From positions 6,202,001-6,266,000 of the forward strand of contig CM075992.1 of the NCBI GenBank assembly GCA_038087875.1: a stretch of 64,000 nucleotides of DNA, given 5' to 3'. Positions within the stretch are counted from its first letter, which is position 1. Every line of letters begins with the position of its first letter. Source of the stretch: Malacoraja senta. Taxonomy: Eukaryota. This document shows positions 24,775-42,489 of the stretch, piece by piece. The notes beneath the pieces are model-generated. The model saw nothing but the letters and a program-made list of their open reading frames with translations. It was not told the DNA's origin and searched no databases. The position numbers and the translations under genes are program-made.

Positions 24775-26096
24775 CTGCCTCCTAATTAACACCTTCCCCT
24801 CTGACACATCTCTCTGCACTATCATCTCTCCCTCAGTAGTGACAGTGTCACATTCCCACAGTAGTGGCTGTCCCTCACTATCAAAGTAGTCAGACTCACT
24901 ATTGAAGTCACACGTGCTCACTACTGATTTTATCACACTCACTACTCACTTCTAATTCACACCGTCCCCTCTGTCATCTTTCTCTGTTCTATCACCTCCC
25001 CCCAGTAGTGACAGTGTCACACTCCCTCAGTAGTGGCAGTGTTTCACTCCCTCAGTAGTGACAGTGTCACACTCCCTCAGTAGTGACAGTGTCACACTCC
25101 CTCAGTAGTGGCAGTGTCACACTCCCTCAGTAGTGACAGTGTCACACTCCCTCAGTAGTGACAGTGTCACACTCCCTCAGTAGTGACAGTGTCACACTCC
25201 CTCAGTAGTGGCAGTGTTTCACTCCATCAGTAGTGAGAGTATCTCACTACTGAAGAAACACACATGCTCACTACTGATAGTGTCACACTCCCTCACTACT
25301 GATAGTGTCACACTCCCTCACTACTGATAGTATCACACTCCCTCACTACTGGTAGTGTCACACTCCCTCACTACTGATAGTATCACACTCGCTCACTACA
25401 GACAGTGTCACATCTGATCACTACTAAGTGTCACACTGTGTGCTGCCTCTATTTTAACACCTTACACACTAACATCCTTCTCTGTACTGTCACCTCCCTA
25501 ATTTCTGACAGTCTCTCTCCCCCAGTAGTGACAGTGTCTGCACCCCTCTATCTCCTGACGGTTTCTCACTACTGACAGAGTAACACGTGCTCACTACGGA
25601 CAATGTCACACTTCCCCAGAACTCACCCTGTGCACTCTCACAATTAACACCTTCCCCTCTGATATCTTTCTCTGAACTGACATCTCTCCCTCAGTGGTGA
25701 CAGTCTCACTCACTCAGTAGTGACAGTGTCTCACTCCCCCAGTAGTGACAATGTCACACTCCCCCAGTAGTGACAGTGTCTCACTCACTCAGTAGTGACA
25801 GTGTCTCACTCACTCAGTAGTGACAGTGTCTCACTCCCCCAGTAGTGACAGTACCTCACTACTGAAGAAACACACATGTGCAAGTGGGGGCGCTGCCCAA
25901 GCAGCCTCGCCTCGCCTGCAGTCCGTCTGTCTTTTCCTTTTTATTTGTTTTCTTTTGTCTTGTTAGATGTATGTTTTAGTTTATTTTTAGTTGTGTATGT
26001 GTGGGGGGTGGGGGAAACTTGTTTTAACCTCTTCCGTCGACACCCTTCTTCACCCTGCAGAGATGTTGCCCGACCCAACCTGGTTTGGACTGGCAG

Positions 26097-26231
26097 GTAA
26101 AGTTATGGTGCAAGAGATTTAATTCAGCTGGTTCAAGAGGGCCAGCAGATTCAGGCGATCACGGTGGCGAACACTCGTTGTTCTTGCGGGTTCCGTTCAC
26201 GGCTGTGCTCGGTTTGACAACCCTCTACATG
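26097..26231 (+). other. Candidate orphan exon (135 bp, phase 0/0)
   Basis: CAG|GTAAAG...TACATG|GTGAGT. Open frame VKLWCKRFNSAGSRGPADSGDHGGEHSLFLRVPFTAVLGLTTLYM. Non-repetitive island; product not recognised. Confidence 0.3.
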
Positions 26232-27840
26232 GTGAGTGGCTGGGCGCATTTCCCATCCATTGCCGGGGAGTTCACCGACACACCCTACAGATAATCCACA
26301 TCCCTCACCACAGACTTAAGAATAAGGTGCAGGCCATTCAGGACAGACATCATGTGATAATATCTCTCTCCCTCAGTAGTGACAATATCTCAGTCCCTCA
26401 CTACAGACAGTGTCACATCTGATCACTACTAAGTGTCACACTGTGCGCTGCCTCTATTTTAACACCTTACACACTAACATCCTTCTCTGTACTGTCACCT
26501 CTCCCTGATTTCTGACGGTCTCTCTCCCTCAGTAGTGAGAGTACCTCACTATTGAAGAAACACACATGCTCACTACTGATAATATCACACTCCCTCACTA
26601 CTGATAGTATCACACTCATTCACCACAGACAGTGTCACATCTGTGACACTACGATCACACGACCTCACAGAGTAACACGTGCTCACGATATCACAAGCCC
26701 TCACTACTACTAGTATCACGTTCCCTCACTACAGATAGTGTCACAGTGAAACACGTTGCACTTCCTCCTAATTAACACCTTCCCCTCTGACACATCTCTC
26801 TGCACTATCATCTCTCCCTCAGTAGTGACAGTGTCACATTCCCACAGTAGTAGCTGTCCCACACTACCAAAGTAGTCAGACTCAGTATTGAAGTCACACG
26901 TGCTCACTACTGATATTATCACACTCACTACTCACTTCTAATTCACACCGTCCCCTCTGTCATCTTTCTCTGTTCTATCATCTCCCCCCAGTAGTGATAA
27001 TGTCACACTCCCTCAGTAGTGACAGTGTCACACTCCCTCAGTAGTGACAGTGTCACACTCCCTCAGTAGTGACAGTGTCACACTCCCTCAGTAGTGGCAG
27101 TGTCACACTCCCTCAGTAGTGACAGTCACACTCCCTCAGTAGTGACAGTGTCACACTCCCTCAGTAGTGGCAGTGTTTCACTCCATCAGTAGTGAGAGTA
27201 TCTCACTACTGAAGAAACACACATGCTCACTACTGATAGTGTCACACTCCCTCACTACTGATAGTATCACACTCCCTCACTACTGATAGTATCACACTCC
27301 CTCACTACTGATAGTATCACACTCCCTCACTACTGGTAGTGTCACACTCCCTCACTACTGATAGTATCACACTCGCTCACTACAGACAGTGTCACATCTG
27401 ATCACTACTAAGTGTCACACTGTGTGCTGCCTCTATTTTAACACCTTACACACTAACATCCTTCTCTGTACTGTCACCTCCCTAATTTCTGACAGTCTCT
27501 CTCCCGCAGTAGTGACAGTGTCTGCACCCCTCTATCTCCTGACGGTTTCTCACTACTGACAGAGTAACACGTGCTCACTACGGACAATGTCACACTTCCC
27601 CAGAACTCACCCTGTGCACTGTCTCACAATTAACACCTTCCCCTCTGATATCTTTCTCTGAACTGACATCTCTCCCCCAGTGGTGACAGTGTCTCACTCA
27701 CTCAGTAGTGACAATGTCACACTCCCCCAGTAGTGACAATGTCACACTCACTCAGTAGTGACAATGTCTCACTCCATCAGTAGTGACAGTGTCTCACTCC
27801 CCCAGTAGTGACAGTACCTCACTACTGAAGAAACACACAT

Positions 27841-28404
27841 GTGGAAGTGGGGGTGCTGCCCAAGCAGCTCCGCCTCGCCTGCAGTCCGTCTGTCTTTTCC
27901 TTTTTATTTGTTTTCTTTTGTCTTGTTAGATGTATGTTTTAGTTTATTTTTAGTTGTGTATGTGTGGGGGGGCGGGGGAAACTTGTTTTAACCTCTTCCT
28001 TCAGGGGGATGTGACCTTTTCTTTGTCGTATCTCCGTCTCTGTCTGCGCTGAGGCCTAATCGTGGAGCTGGCGGCCTCCAACTGGGACCGACCCCAAGGC
28101 ACCGGAGGCAGAGCCTGTGGACTCACCATCGCGGGGCTGGCCGACCTCGGGGCTGTGGTGGCGCTGCGGCTGCGACCCGACTTCGGAGCCTCGGAGGCTT
28201 TGGCCGCGGACCCAGTGGACGACAACATCGGGAGCTCGCAGGTTGCAGGTTGGTGACCTGTTCTCCGGAGCTCCCGCAACGACAGCTTCGTCCGCCCCGG
28301 GCCGCGGAGCTTGAATTCGGCCGCGGGACTTGCCATCACCCGACGGAGGGCCCAACATCGAAAGCCTGGATCGCCTCAACGTAGAGGGAGAACAAGGAAG
28401 GAAG
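27841..28404 (+). mobile_element. GC-rich non-autonomous retroposon (5' part), same family as 39061-39910
   Basis: GGAAGTGG...CTCGCCTGCAGTCCGTCTGT head and CpG-rich body align with the reverse complement of 39240-39900. Confidence 0.75.
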
Positions 28405-31400
28405 AGTCTCTCTCCCCCAGTAGTGACAGTGTCTCACTCCCCCAGTAGTGACAGTGCTTCACTACTGACAGTGTCACACATGCTCACTACTGATAACATC
28501 ACACGACCTCACTACTGCTAGTATCACGTTCCCTCACTACAGATAGTGTCACAGAGAAACACTGTGCACTGCCTCCTAATTAACACCTTCCCCTCTGACA
28601 CACCTCTCTGCACTATCATCTCTCCCTCAGTAGTGACAGTGTCACACCCTGTCAGTAGTGACAGTACCTCACTATTGAAGAAACACACATGCTCACTACT
28701 GATAGTGTCACACTCCCTCACTACTGATAGTATCACACTCCCTCACTACTGACAGTGTCACACATCACTATTGAGTGTCACACTGTGCGCCGCTTCCATT
28801 TTAACTCCTTACACACTAACATCCTTCTCTGTACTGTCATCTCTCCCTCAGTAGCGACAGTCTCACACTTCCTCACTAGTGACAGTCACACGTGCTCACT
28901 ACTGATAGTATCATACTGCGTCACAGCTGAGAGCCACACACCCCATCACCACAGGAGGTATCACACTCACTCACTACTGACAGTATCACACTCACTCACT
29001 ACTGATAGTGTCACACTCACTCACTACTGACAGTATCACACTCACTCACTACTGACAGTATCACACTCACTCACTATTGACACTACCACACTCACTCACT
29101 ACTGATAGTATCACACTCTCTCACTACCGACAGTGTCACACTCACTCACTATTGACACTACCACACTCCCTCACCACTGATAGTGTCACATCTCTATCAC
29201 TACCGACACTACACTCCCTCAGTACTATCAGTGACCCCTGCCAACTCACCCTGACTGAAGGCTGTGATTCTGTGACCTTGGTTTGCCTTCTGAACCCTGG
29301 GCGTTCCAACCCCTCCCTGCCCGCTCCTGGTGATCTGTCCTTTAACTCTGCACTGTTGGCAGTTGTATTGTCGACAGCCTTGACTTCTGAATGACTTCAT
29401 CACGTAACGAATAGACTTGTCCTGAGGATATGAGTAACCGCCTAAACTCTCTCACCCTGGAAACTGGACACCGCCACATAAAAGAAAATATTGTTGTCTA
29501 AGCGTTTGAAGTCAGCACTGATCTCATCTTGTCCAAGCGGGATGAGATCGTTTCTCAGTCTACACCCACCCCTATATGCTGCATTGACAGTTCACCTTGA
29601 AGGCCATGATACCTCTGCAGGTGCTTCACACGAGTATTACTGACAGATATTGACAGTGTCGAGAAGCTCAACATGTGACGCAGCGGGTAGAGCTGCTGCC
29701 TCGGAGTGCCAGAAGTGTGAAGACGCACACCTCCAGAGTCAGGGACAGTTTCTTCCCAGCAGTGATCGGGCCACTAAACCATCCTATCAACAACTAGAGA
29801 GCAGTCCGTAGCTACTATGTACCGTCAGAGAAGGAATTGGTGACATTCCGGGTCGAGACCCTTCTTCAGAAGTCTGAGGAAGGGCCTCGACCCGAAATGT
29901 CACCCATTCCTTCTCATCAGAGTTACTCCACTGAGTTACTCCAGCATTTTGTGTCTACCTTCGGTGTAAACCAGCATCTGCAGTTCCTTCCTAAGCCACT
30001 ATCTGCCTCATTGGAGACCATCGGATCATCTCTAATTGCTCCTTCCTGGATTTGATCTTGCACTAAACGTCAATCCCTTTATCTTGTAGCTGTACACTGT
30101 GGATGGCTCGATTATAATCATGTGTCAAAAGGAACTGCAGATGCTGGTTTAAACCGAAGATTGACACAAAACGGTGGAGTAACTCAGCGGGTCAGGCAGC
30201 ATCACTGGAGAGAAGGATCAGGTGACGTTTCGGGTCGAGACCCTTCTTCAGTTTGAAACTAAAAAAAGTTATGGTGTCAGCAGGGGAGCTATCAATCTGA
30301 AAAAGGTTCTCGACCCAAAATATCACCCATCCTCTTTCTCCAGAGATGCTGCCTGACCCTCTGAGTTACTCCAGCACCTTGTGTCCATCTTCAGCTTATA
30401 GTGTTACATGAACTGATGTATGTCCTGGCTTTTGGCAACTAAAAAATCACTGACATATGTATGGATTTTGATTGTAGTCATGCATAGATATTATATTTTA
30501 CCTGGAATTTAAAATAGTGTTTACGCTGTAACTTGTACCCCTGACACTACACCAGACTAGGGCGTGGGTAGAGGCTCCTGGTCGCTGGGATCTCTAGATA
30601 TCTGGTGCGTGAAGGACGGTTATGGTGGCGCAGCGCCGGTGTCCCGGGTTCGATCCCGACTACGGATTCTGTCTGTACGGAGTTTGTACTTCCTCCCCGT
30701 GACCTGCGTGGGTTTTCTCCGAGATCTTCGGTTTCCTCCCACACTCCAAAGACGTTCAGGGTTGTAGGTTAATTGGCTTGGTAAATGTAAAAATTGTCCC
30801 TAGTGGGTGTAGGATAGTGTTAGTGTGCGGGGATCGCTGGTCGGCGCGGACCCGGTGGGCCGAAGGGCCTGTTTCCACGCTGCATCTCTAAACTAAACCT
30901 TCTCCTTCATCTGCTCCTGGGCCTGCCCAAGGAGGCCATTCGCAGGTCCAGGCAGTGGGATATCAGGACCCTACCGTCTGCCCCTCTGCCCGAAGATACA
31001 TCCAGACCTGGGAGTCCCTGTCTTTCTGGACAAAGCATCCCAGGCAAGAATGATAGGTTTAGTTTGTAAACGGTGTAGGGTTCCATCCTAACTCTGGGTG
31101 CTTGACTGAATAGAGTTTGTACCTTCTCCCCGTGACCTGCGTGGGTTTTCTCAGAGATCTTCGGTTTCCTCCCACACTCCAAAGACGTACAGGTTTGTAG
31201 GTTAATTGGCTTGGTATAAATGTAAAAACTGTCCCTAGTGGGTGTAGGATAGTGTTAATGTGCGGGGATCGCTGGGCCGAAGGGCCTGTTTCCGTGCTGT
31301 CTCTCTAAACTAAACTAAACTACTGTAAATATGTAAACAAAGCTTTTCACTGTTTCTCGGTACACTGACTATACAATAATAAACCAATACCAGTAAAAAG

Positions 31401-31871: not shown

Positions 31872-32750
31872 CAGGGGCGGAAATCCCGGGGGGGGGGGGG
31901 ACAGGTGGGGCATATCCCCCCTGTTTTGGGAGGTGCGGGACGATCCCCCCTATTTTTTGTAATCCGGATTTAAAAACTCCTTGAAAAAAAAGCTATCAAA
32001 AATCTCCGCTTTCCGCGAGACAGTGGGGGTGGGACTGATGATCGAGGGCGTCGATTGGACGAGAGGGACGTCGGTCAGCAGGCATTGGGGTTGGGACATG
32101 ATGATTCAGCGCGATGATTGGAGGAGGGAGGTGTCGGTCAGACGCGGAAGTAGGGGGGTGGGACTGAGGGTAAAGCGCGGTGATTGGAGGAGGGAGACGT
32201 CCTGGTGGAGCAAAGATCATAGAATAGCTTGACTCGGCCCGTTCGCGGGGCCTTTCATCGCCCGGCCCGGGGCGGCTCGGCTTAAAATCGACCTCGGGAT
32301 CTTCCACCGCCCCGCGGTCAAATTCCTGCATCGAGGCGATCGAGGCTCCCGTGTTGAAGCCCCCACGAACGAGCCGACTGAAGCCCCCACGATTCGGGGC
32401 GGACGAAGCTGCTGTTGCCAGAGTTCGGAGTCGGTCACCAACCAGGTCAGCTCCCGATGTTACCGGCCATAGGGCCCATGGCCGAAAACCTCGCGTGTGT
32501 GCGCCAAATTCAAGTGCAGTTTCATGCCACTTCAAGCAGGGTGCAAGTCAACCAAACTCAAGTGCAGTTTCATACCACTTCAAGCAGGGTGCAAGTCCAC
32601 CAAACTCAAGTGCAGTTTCATACCACTTCAAGCAGGGTGCAAGGCCACAAAACTCAAGTGCAGTTTCACAGTGCGTGTGTGCGGCCGCAAGAAATTGTCC
32701 ACCCCCCTCCCCCCCCCCCCCGCATGTTTTGACACCGATTTCCTTGCCTG
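31872..32750. mobile_element. Non-autonomous hAT-like element inserted in a SINE tail; contains a 48-bp tandem repeat (32505-32670)
   Basis: Termini CAGGGGCGGAAATC / GATTTCCTTGCCTG; 8-bp TSD GGTGGTCC / GGTGGGCC. Confidence 0.75.
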
Positions 32751-39910: not shown

Positions 39911-41068
39911 ACACACACATAAACACGCACCCATGTACACATGCGCACACACACATGCACCCACACGTAAACATGCACCCACATACACAAGCACACACAC
40001 ACACACACGTACACCCTCATGTAAACACGCACCCATACACATGTGCACCAACATGTAAACATGCACCCACATACACATGCACACACACACACACACGTAA
40101 ACACACACCCATGTACACACACACACACATGTGCACCAACATGTAAACACGCACCCACATACACACACACACATGTAAACACACACCCATTGTCAAGTCT
40201 TCTAATGTTTTTGTGCAGATTCCCCGCTTGAAAGGGATCTGATTCATCCACCCCGAGATGATCAACTGGATTTCACTCAATGACCAAACCACTTCTTTTC
40301 CATTTTTTTTTCTCCTTTTATTTTGGCAGATTCAGCAATTAATTGACAGTTTCACTTGATTTATTGCTTCAGCCATTACTTTGAAGGCATTTGGATGTTG
40401 TAGGTCTTAAGGTATTTAAGTTTAGTCTTTTAGCAGGTGAAAAACTGGCTGCCAATCGGGTGCTGTAGATAATCAGTCCTGCATGCCTTCGCTGGCGATC
40501 GCGGCAGTTTTTAGGACAGTCTCTTAGATTATACTGTTCAAGTTTTTAGCCGCAAGTCAACTTCCGTCTTTTCCTCGCTTCCGGTGCTGTGTGCCCTTTT
40601 TTAAAGCCCCGGGCGGAACTCAGCCTATCTCCGCTTCTCTGTTCACGGTCGGGCTGACTCTGCTCCCGACCGGGCTTTCTCTGCTTTCTCCCCCCACCGG
40701 GCTGACTGTTCCCAGTTGGGCCGAAGACTCAGCCTCTTGTCGGTGGCTTTTCTGGACCTGTCCGTGGCCTTCACGGTACTAGGCCCCCACCCGACGTCTG
40801 TGGCTGCTGCTTGGGCTTGGCTGTGGGCTGCACAGCCCTGGATACATTCCAGGTAAGCTGACACCCTGCTTGGTGACCCTTACTGCCCCTGCTTGATTTC
40901 CTAGCTCTTCCCTGAGCTATTGCTTCCCGTTCCTACCTGTTTTCTTTTTGGCGCCAATTCAAAACCCATTTGGCTTGGTGCTGTTCCACTTGTTTCCTAA
41001 TACTACTTCTATTTTTAACTTTTGTTTTCGATTCTTCTTGCTGGCCTTGTTCTTATCTTCGTTCTTTT

Positions 41069-41081
41069 ATCCTCGTCGCCA
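41069..41081 (-). promoter_or_regulatory. Primer-binding site complementary to the tRNA-Ser(GCU) 3' end
   Basis: Minus strand TGGCGACGAGGAT is the complement of ATCCTCGTCG-CCA. It lies 2 nt after an ...ACAACA LTR end. Confidence 0.8.
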
Positions 41082-41083
41082 AT

Positions 41084-41251
41084 TGTTGTGTATTCGGATG
41101 CTTTGAACAGTCTTGAATAAAGGCTCGGACACGGGAGGACTCATACAAGCTTCTTTACTGCAGGACGCCACCTTGTCTTTTTTGCTCCTGCGTACTTGCC
41201 CCAGACATCACAAGACACCAATTACTTATCCTAATCATCCCATACCTAACA
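41084..41251 (-). mobile_element. 168-bp Gypsy-like mini-LTR preceded by a polypurine tract (41252-41267)
   Basis: Minus strand reads TTAAAGGGGGGAGGAG|TGTTAGGTAT...AGTAAAG...ATACACAACA|AT-PBS. The termini match 8/10 as inverted repeats. Confidence 0.75.
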
Positions 41252-42489
41252 CTCCTCCCCCCTTTAACTTGGAGCCCGGTAACACCAATTATATTACATA
41301 CATAATACTCCTCCCCCTTTAACTTGGAGGCAGGTAATACCTTTCATTACAGTTTGACTTGACACCCATGTACACATGCACACACACACATGCAAGCATA
41401 CACACAGAGACATGTACACACACATGTGCATGTGCGCACACACACACACTCACTTGTACACACAACCCACACAGAACGAAGAGGGAATGTTCAGAGGTCT
41501 CTATGGCCGTCCAGTTCCTGAGAGGTTTAGAACTTTAAAGAAAGAGACCACATTGTTGATATTTGAATGACAGCAACGTAGGCAGCTGGCTAATATGAAA
41601 CCAAACAGAATTAAAGAAGGAGCAGTTTTAATTGGTGGGGTCGGCAGCAGGGAGAGTTTGCAGCTTTTAATTCCTTGCCGTTAACATCGGGAATGATGTG
41701 TCCTGGACTCACCACAGATGTGCTCCCACACGAGTCTCACCAGTGCCTCTACTCTCTTGGAAAATAGACATAGAATATAGAACAGTACAGCACAAGAACA
41801 GGCCCTTCAGCCCGCAATGTCATGATCATAAGTGCTCGGAGCAGAATTAGGCCATTCGGCCCATCAAGTCTATTCCGCCATTCAATCATGGCTGATCTAT
41901 CTCTCCCTCCTAACCCCATTCTCCTGATTTCTTCCCAAAATCCCTGACACTCATACAAATGAAGAATCTATCTATCTCCGCCTTAAAATATCCATTGACC
42001 TGGCCTCCACAGCCTTCTGTGGCAAAGAATTCCACAGATTCACCACCCTCTGACTTCCTGAAATTCCTCCTCATGTCTGTGGTGAATTTGATGCCAACCC
42101 CATCTGATGGGGTTTGGAGGGAGAGATAAATCAGCCATGATTGAATGGCGGAGTAGACTTGATGGGCCGAATGGTCTAATTCTTCTCCTATCACATATGA
42201 CCTTATGAACCTACACCAGTCTAACCCAATTATACTGCTGTCCTTGACGAGGCAGCTTGAGATACATAGAATCAATAGAAGGGAGGTTAGTTTGTGTGAT
42301 AGGCGCATGGATGTGCAGGGAATGGAGGGATATGGATTATGCTCAGGTAGATAAGAGATGGTTTTGGCATCATGTTCAGCACAAACATTGTGGGCCGAAG
42401 GGCCTGTTCATGAGCTGTACTAAGCCTCATCTGTACCCTCTCACAGCTCTTCACATCCTTCCTGTAATGACGTGACCAGAACACTGGTG

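What the first reader, a model, noticed from the sequence alone, without database searches (positions are those of the whole stretch)
40191..41364. Element within an element: TGT...ACA insertion enclosing an inside-out PPT-LTR-PBS cassette
Seen: a 1174-bp non-coding insert with perfect 9-bp inverted ends and a CCCAT duplication; the uninterrupted target CACACCCATGTACAC occurs nearby at ~40103. On the minus strand it holds a partial duplicate PPT/LTR-start (41297-41340), a PPT (41252-41267), a 168-bp TG..CA mini-LTR (41084-41251), a 13-nt tRNA-Ser(GCU) PBS (41069-41081), an A-rich leader, a TATA-like TTTAAAAAAGG (~40595-40605) and AATAAA (~40360, ~40318). Known: LTR retrotransposons run LTR-PBS...PPT-LTR, so one LTR with a PPT before it and a PBS after it arises only in tandem arrays or 1-LTR circles; Ser PBSs, short LTRs and 5-bp TSDs are typical of Mag-clade Gypsy elements. 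Inference: this is either a large solo LTR whose U3 was built from a Gypsy/TRIM junction, or a circularly permuted non-autonomous element that gained new integrase attachment ends and moves as a single unit.
Basis: partly seen in the sequence, partly recalled or inferred. Interest (0 to 1): 0.75.

Follow-up and report, generated by a model that had tools for sequence, protein, structure and literature searches.

The report
Retrotransposon end carrying another retrotransposon's piece
The stretch is the leftover end repeat of an ordinary BEL/Pao jumping gene whose end repeats carry a 720-base piece of an unrelated Gypsy jumping gene, likely picked up by a copying slip and carried along as a passenger, so it is not a new self-contained mobile element.

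Summary
The 1174-bp insert is a solo LTR of a Suzu-like BEL/Pao retrotransposon: of the 30 best genomic matches 17 are 5' LTRs, 8 are 3' LTRs, 4 are solo LTRs with 5-bp duplications and 1 is rearranged; pairs flank a gag-pol with the Pao peptidase domain. The inner PPT-LTR-PBS-leader (about 720 bp) comes from a separate short-LTR Gypsy family that is common in the same genome. It replaced about 67 bp of the BEL U3 between two microhomologies; sister BEL copies have the LTR without it (35 empty versus 118 filled LTR starts). The repeated PPT is native to the donor, which makes PPT-LTR-PBS ends itself (3 of 3 testable copies have perfect duplications). The inner signals are not used as ends, and the donor's poly(A) signal is altered in 61 of 62 filled LTRs. 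Side lead: the BEL family has no 3'-end tRNA primer site and may prime on the anticodon arm of tRNA-Glu. A tidy cross-superfamily capture of modest interest.

The parts
40191..41364 (-). Solo LTR of a Suzu-like BEL/Pao retrotransposon (filled type)
   Evidence: 95-98% matches elsewhere are 5' or 3' LTRs of gag-pol elements
40186..40190 (+). 5-bp target-site duplication, left copy (CCCAT)
41365..41369 (+). 5-bp target-site duplication, right copy (CCCAT)
41341..41364 (-). Native BEL LTR start (24 bp); its last 11 bp overlap the donor repeat (left microhomology TGTAAT..GAAA)
   Evidence: identical to the start of empty LTR L223
40625..41340 (-). Captured Gypsy piece: PPT repeats, LTR, PBS, 5' leader
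   Evidence: about 80-87% identical to the nearest donor copies L101/L102; absent from empty LTRs
41308..41322 (-). Donor PPT repeat 1 (followed by TA, not TG, in most filled LTRs)
41252..41267 (-). Donor PPT repeat 2
41084..41251 (-). Donor Gypsy LTR (168 bp); donor family LTRs are about 158-179 bp
41154..41159 (-). Donor poly(A) signal position, AGTAAA here
   Evidence: AATAAA in 31 of 31 donor LTRs, AGTAAA in 61 of 62 filled LTRs
41069..41081 (-). Donor PBS, complementary to the 3' end of tRNA-Ser(GCT)
40619..40624 (-). Right junction microhomology (GCCGAG in donor L102, empty LTR L223 and filled copy L002; GCTGAG in the window copy)
40191..40624 (-). Native BEL LTR remainder (rest of U3, R, U5)
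   Evidence: 79-86% identical over the aligned blocks to empty LTRs of 435-446 and about 820 bp
40317..40322 (-). AATAAA shared with the empty LTR; likely the BEL poly(A) signal
   Evidence: function inferred

Best explanation
This is a solo long terminal repeat of a Suzu-like BEL/Pao retrotransposon whose U3 holds a piece of an unrelated Gypsy retrotransposon, likely captured by reverse-transcriptase template switching and likely carried since as a passenger. Shown: the LTR pairs around a BEL/Pao gag-pol; sister copies lack the piece; the piece matches a short-LTR Gypsy family of the same genome; it replaces about 67 bp of BEL U3 with short shared words at both joins and no duplication; all ends stay at the outer BEL termini. 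Inferred: during minus-strand synthesis the BEL enzyme left its own U3 for the leader of a co-packaged Gypsy RNA, copied leader, PBS, U5 and R, made the ordinary R-to-R jump to that RNA's 3' end (or copied a read-through RNA of a donor copy with an extended 5' LTR), copied U3 and two PPT repeats, and switched back 24 bp from the BEL LTR start. Once in U3 the piece is copied into both LTRs at every round. The window copy arose later, by recombination between the two LTRs of one insertion (inferred from one LTR between a perfect 5-bp duplication).
For: Internal region: DUF1759, Peptidase_A17, DUF5641, integrase zinc finger; 76% to a sole protein, 65% to a Takifugu protein whose third zinc knuckle has the spacing given for Suzu in PMC554778. 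Donor: 22 of 30 PBS loci looked at; 9 of 14 scorable copies have perfect 5-bp duplications; PR-RT-RH-IN order, K02A2.6-like relatives. Empty LTRs; 35 versus 118 starts; filled and empty types fall on two sides of one branch in a tree of the 5' internal 1.3 kb (1 change, support 93/74, shuffled mean 12). Microhomologies and replacement rather than insertion match the pattern reported in PMC5131818 (passages). Two PPT repeats in the order GTATTACC then GTGTTACC are also the order at the 3' end of donor L102. No use of inner ends: 112 mini-LTR ends, 0 followed by a base other than A, 1 preceded by a base other than G, and that one is a point change inside a whole BEL LTR.
Against: The capture step is inferred from one event; the join words are short (6 exact bases each) and I ran no chance test for them. 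The nearest donor copies sampled are only about 80-87% identical, so the true donor subfamily was not found. The native parts of filled and empty LTRs differ more (about 15-20%) than their internal regions (about 2-6%), which means later recombination or fast LTR change blurs the history; the first tree needed 3 changes until 3 rearranged rows were dropped (versus 78). One copy (L012) starts with a donor-like TGTTATG instead of the BEL start, without a duplication. Filled LTRs outnumber empty ones about 3 to 1, which could mean the piece does something. Co-packaging across superfamilies was not observed.
Confidence: 0.8

Rival explanations
1. Same solo BEL LTR, but the piece came in at the DNA level: a Gypsy copy with an extended 5' LTR, a tandem junction or a 1-LTR circle inserted into or recombined with a BEL LTR, and deletions between short repeats then trimmed it.
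For: Donor copies with PPT-LTR-PBS exist as DNA: 5 found, 4 with a 5' LTR extended by one repeat and 1 a 3' LTR followed by a PBS. Microhomology also marks deletion joins (established knowledge).
Against: No duplication and no donor TG terminus at the left join; 67 bp of BEL are lost; the piece has two PPT repeats while the 4 extended donors have one; two separate deletions would be needed; no intermediate among the LTRs examined.
Confidence: 0.15
2. The captured piece is not a passenger: its Gypsy promoter or enhancer (or its Ser PBS) helps the BEL element and explains why filled LTRs dominate.
For: 118 filled versus 35 empty LTR starts; PBS and second PPT are intact; donor poly(A) signal altered as expected for a piece kept upstream of R.
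Against: Ends never move to the inner signals, so PBS and PPT are not priming; empty copies transposed over a similar period (LTR-pair divergence 1.8% for one empty copy, 1.4-3.5% for filled copies); some filled copies have lost 270-430 bp of the piece; a 3-to-1 ratio from one founder can be drift; the poly(A) change is a single inherited event. Not exclusive of the best explanation.
Confidence: 0.15
3. A circularly permuted, non-autonomous element that moves as one 1174-bp unit.
For: Many near-identical dispersed copies with the same ends; 10 of 70 held copies stand alone between 5-bp duplications.
Against: 25 of the top 30 copies are LTRs of longer elements; paired copies share one duplication around the whole element (5 filled elements, two of them copies of one insertion); empty LTRs have the same ends; solo LTRs are the expected by-product.
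Confidence: 0.01

Closest known systems
Suzu clade of BEL/Pao LTR retrotransposons (Takifugu Suzu; PMC554778, PMC3118150, PMC2774666, passages read)
   Same: Single gag-pol frame with Pao peptidase A17, triple zinc knuckle, TG..CA LTRs, 5-bp duplications; 59% (gag) and 65% (pol) identity to the Takifugu protein P0050, which has the CX4CX6HHX3C knuckle given for Suzu.
   Different: Third knuckle here is CX4CX7HHX3C; about three quarters of the LTRs carry a Gypsy piece. That P0050's cluster mate AAN15112 is the Suzu product is recalled, not shown.
LTR-mediated retroposition by microsimilarity-dependent template switching (Tan et al. 2016, PMC5131818, passages read)
   Same: Part of the element is replaced by foreign sequence, short shared words at both joins, the chimera keeps transposing; the paper includes a Pao element.
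   Different: There host mRNA replaces internal coding sequence and gives non-autonomous copies; here the captured sequence is another superfamily's LTR region, sits in U3, is permuted (3' end before 5' end) and leaves gag-pol untouched.
Ty3/Gypsy elements with K02A2.6-like polyprotein (Mag lineage; the link between that label and Mag is recalled)
   Same: Donor has short LTRs, tRNA-Ser PBS, 5-bp duplications, PR-RT-RH-IN order.
   Different: This donor has 1-4 tandem PPT repeats that serve as alternative LTR starts; many copies lack pol and carry IQ-motif coding sequence.
Anticodon-loop (half-tRNA) priming of Ty5, copia and fungal Copia families (PMC10886601, passages read)
   Same: BEL family lacks a TGG primer site; the bases after its 5' LTR pair with tRNA-Glu(TTC) up to about position 38-39.
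   Different: That paper names only Copia-superfamily elements for this mode; here it is a BEL/Pao element, the perfect match is only 7-10 bases, and it is untested.

Membership tests
BEL/Pao LTR retrotransposon (parent element) | Two LTRs around gag-pol, one duplication around the whole | tested here: met
   (L031, L032, L037, L205, L206 with perfect 5-bp duplications)
BEL/Pao LTR retrotransposon (parent element) | Pao peptidase A17, DUF1759, DUF5641; RT with YVDD before RNase H and integrase | tested here: met
BEL/Pao LTR retrotransposon (parent element) | Triple Cys-His box in gag | tested here: met
BEL/Pao LTR retrotransposon (parent element) | PPT before the 3' LTR | tested here: met
   GAGTGGGAGG
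BEL/Pao LTR retrotransposon (parent element) | PBS for a tRNA 3' end after the 5' LTR | tested here: not met
   GTGAAAAAC follows directly in filled and empty types; two distant relatives lack it too, so it looks like a clade trait, not damage
Suzu clade | Groups with Suzu in an RT tree with all seven clades | not tested
   only pairwise identity (59-65%) and the knuckle motif; no named Dan, Sinbad or Flow references were at hand
Ty3/Gypsy (donor) | PR-RT-RH-IN order, RVT_1 and RT_RNaseH domains | tested here: met
   L103
Mag lineage (donor) | Groups with Mag, SURL or Gulliver in an RT tree | not tested
   relatives are labelled K02A2.6-like; assignment to Mag is recalled
TRIM or other self-contained non-autonomous LTR element | LTR-PBS-internal-PPT-LTR with its own duplication, no coding region | tested here: not met
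   one mini-LTR only; no copy bounded by its ends
Solo LTR | One LTR between a perfect duplication, no PPT before and no internal sequence after | tested here: met

The most novel reading that the evidence does not exclude
A BEL/Pao particle packaged a Gypsy RNA, and the BEL reverse transcriptase ran the Gypsy's own R-to-R strand transfer in the middle of its synthesis, leaving a fossil of cross-superfamily co-packaging in U3; the host Suzu clade itself primes on a tRNA-Glu half cut in the anticodon arm, a mode I found described only for Copia elements.
Probability: 0.35. Interest if true: 0.55.

Novelty: new variant of a known kind. Interest (0 to 1): 0.33.

Why it matters
If the reading holds, it is a clean natural case, with both parents still in the genome, of one LTR superfamily taking regulatory DNA from another, and it shows that a PPT-LTR-PBS join can come from ordinary linear copying without circles or tandem arrays. 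It matters for repeat annotation: about 120 or more BEL LTRs would be mis-called as nested Gypsy insertions. The side lead, half-tRNA priming in Suzu-clade elements, would explain their missing primer site and is testable. It does not reveal a new kind of mobile element.

Tried and rejected
Mini-LTR similarity search returned only BEL LTRs (30 of 30 loci); the donor appeared only through the PBS pattern. Tandem array or circle as the needed source: 4 of 5 donor junction loci are single elements. L012 as proof that the inner PPT is used: no duplication, no internal sequence on either side, left unexplained. First tree (3' integrase region) kept only 1 empty row of 25 after 17 rows were dropped for low cover; second tree had 3 changes with 3 rearranged rows, rerun without them. 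Expression: no RNA holder listed; of the RNA reads laid, most were only 90-95% alike (309 of 425, 53 of 74, 82 of 117, 48 of 78), so they largely come from relatives and give no start site or level. Duplex energy of tRNA-Glu half with the BEL leader was only borderline against shuffles (fraction 0.05-0.31 for 6 variants); one distant relative (L244) matches at 9 of 10 and scored under 6 in the perfect-match test; the tRNA panel covered only 13 anticodon types. Searches for more Suzu relatives: none in viral contigs or in the first metagenome scan, 11 loci in the second, of which 2 showed the LTR end; no second Suzu family stood out in this genome. Literature: ten searches listed no paper on a Gypsy piece inside a BEL LTR or on the Suzu primer; the original Suzu paper and Repbase could not be searched, and no supplements were opened, so either point may already be catalogued.

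Full report
Observation. The insert sits in a CA-rich tandem array and has no second copy in the window. The PBS is the exact complement of the 3' end plus CCA of a tRNA-Ser(GCT) gene of this genome (1 such gene and 1 anticodon variant among 8 loci scanned).

The insert is an LTR. The genome (G000, 1.94 Gb) gave 827 candidates, 40 scored, most full length at 95-98%. Of the top 30, 17 are followed by one shared internal start (5' LTRs), 8 are preceded by one shared PPT, GAGTGGGAGG (3' LTRs), 4 including the window copy stand alone between 5-bp duplications, and 1 (L012) is rearranged. Pairs enclose 6.2-7.3 kb and one duplication surrounds the whole element; LTR pairs differ by 1.4-3.5%. The internal region of L031 is one gag-pol frame broken by two stops, with DUF1759, Peptidase_A17, DUF5641 and an integrase zinc finger. 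Its nearest named relatives are teleost proteins (76% sole, 70% zebrafish) and a Takifugu protein at 65% that has the third-knuckle spacing reported for Suzu in PMC554778 (passages); its cluster holds a Takifugu 'gag-pol fusion polyprotein'. I call the element Suzu-like; no tree with all BEL/Pao clades was made.

The donor of the inner piece. The LTR-end-plus-PBS pattern has 206 exact hits, control 0. Of the first 30, 7 are the BEL LTR, 22 belong to a second family whose short LTR starts at unrelated flanks (two of these loci lie in one element), and 1 has another LTR. Longer stretches show LTRs of about 158-179 bp, lengths of 3.8-8.2 kb and perfect 5-bp duplications in 9 of 14 scorable copies (20 fetched). 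L103 encodes protease, RT, RNase H and integrase in Gypsy order, with K02A2.6-like relatives; placing these in the Mag lineage is recalled. Positions about 14-740 of the window LTR match the donor's 3' end, LTR, PBS and leader at about 80-87% for the nearest copies.

The donor makes PPT-LTR-PBS ends by itself. Its 3' end carries 1-4 tandem repeats of about 54 bp, each ending in a PPT. Five donor copies have PPT-LTR-PBS in a row; 4 begin with TG one repeat further upstream at an unrelated flank, and 1 is a 3' LTR followed by a PBS. All 3 whose far end was reached have a perfect duplication (GCCAG, GGGTC, TCTTT). So priming at an upstream repeat lengthens the LTR and puts a PPT inside it (inferred from structure).

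The empty site. Among 30 3'-LTR starts, 8 continue with BEL sequence without the piece; empty LTRs are 435-446 bp or about 820 bp, with the same ends, the same PPT and the same internal start. Exact 25-base starts number 35 empty and 118 filled. The piece replaces about 67 bp of U3; there is no duplication; TGTAAT..GAAA is shared at the left join and GCCGAG at the right. In a tree of the 5' internal 1.3 kb, 29 filled and 14 empty rows need 1 change (support 93/74, 92% of bootstrap trees, shuffled mean 12) after 3 rearranged rows were dropped; with them it was 3 (9 of 55 rows dropped there for low cover). The tree is unrooted and does not by itself show direction; direction comes from the piece being an intact part of another family. 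Most filled LTRs have two PPT repeats; forms with one or three have crossovers at different places, so two is likely the first state.

The inner signals are not used. The filled mini-LTR end has 112 exact hits; 0 are followed by a base other than A and 1 is preceded by a base other than G, a point change inside a whole BEL LTR; a random flank would show in three of four cases. All 70 distinct filled LTRs with intact ends held are 5', 3' or solo LTRs. The donor's AATAAA is kept in 31 of 31 donor LTRs and reads AGTAAA in 61 of 62 filled ones, as would be needed for BEL RNA to run through U3, but this is one inherited change.

Mechanism. Replacement with short shared words at both joins is the pattern that PMC5131818 (passages) ascribes to template switching in the particle. 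A linear donor RNA is enough: switch onto its leader, copy to its 5' end, jump R to R, copy U3 and two PPT repeats, switch back. Copying a read-through RNA of an extended donor copy gives the same product. DNA-level insertion followed by trimming is the rival; it needs two deletions and the donor's terminus is missing. None of these steps was observed.

Other species and RNA. No RNA holder was listed. Reads and contigs laid on the LTR are mostly from relatives. They show the empty form as a joint skipping 740 bases (2 reads in X14, 4 in X18, one contig in X5) and a filled form with a different right join (4 reads in X11, one contig in X1), so the chimera occurs under other organism labels; nothing on start sites or level can be drawn.

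Side lead: how the BEL primes. Neither LTR type has a TGG site after the 5' LTR. The bases there pair with the anticodon arm of tRNA-Glu(TTC) genes of this genome: 7 bases for the common form, 9 for a variant, best of 13 anticodon types (46 distinct genes). I chose this tRNA after seeing the sequence. Two distant relatives fetched afterwards (57-58% protein identity) also lack TGG and match at 10 of 10 and 9 of 10 bases. Duplex energies were borderline. PMC10886601 (passages) names this priming mode for Copia-superfamily elements only. It is a hint, perhaps even odds.

Verdict. Real feature, largely explained: a solo BEL/Pao LTR with a captured Gypsy piece. Ten literature searches (listings only, plus passages of PMC3118150, PMC6238403, PMC554778, PMC2774666, PMC5131818, PMC10886601) showed no such case, but Repbase and the original Suzu paper were out of reach. 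New variant of a known kind; interest 0.33.

Noticed in passing
L011, L201, L244, L245: first 12 bases after the 5' LTR; tRNA genes L241, L243: Suzu-like elements lack a 3'-end tRNA primer site; 7-10 bases pair with the anticodon arm of tRNA-Glu(TTC), hinting at half-tRNA priming.
   Followed up: partly
L106+L107, L214, L215 (donor Gypsy copies): Tandem 54-bp PPT repeats act as alternative LTR starts: copies with a 5' LTR longer by one repeat have perfect target duplications.
   Followed up: yes
L113:2615-3502, L115:2149-3096 and other donor copies: Many pol-less donor copies carry IQ calmodulin-binding-motif coding sequence (Pfam IQ), apparently a captured host mRNA; resemblance to ASPM is recalled, not tested.
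   Followed up: partly
L012 (G000:C6:66059545-66060718): A filled LTR that starts with a donor-like TGTTATG instead of the BEL start, with no duplication and no internal sequence.
   Followed up: partly
L213, L220, L222: Elements with an empty 5' LTR and a filled 3' LTR and unmatched flanks, repeated on unplaced contigs; likely recombinants.
   Followed up: no
runs X1, X11 on window 40564-40630: A filled LTR with a different right join (longer donor part, TATA-like word missing) under other organism labels.
   Followed up: no
L103 RT: The donor RT is 77% identical to a sea-urchin protein but about 50% to fish proteins; possible horizontal transfer.
   Followed up: no
window 24999-29208: Long array of a 25-bp satellite in several blocks.
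   Followed up: no
window 32504-32668: 48-bp tandem repeat at 95% match; similar sequence flanks BEL copy L013 and donor copy L090.
   Followed up: no
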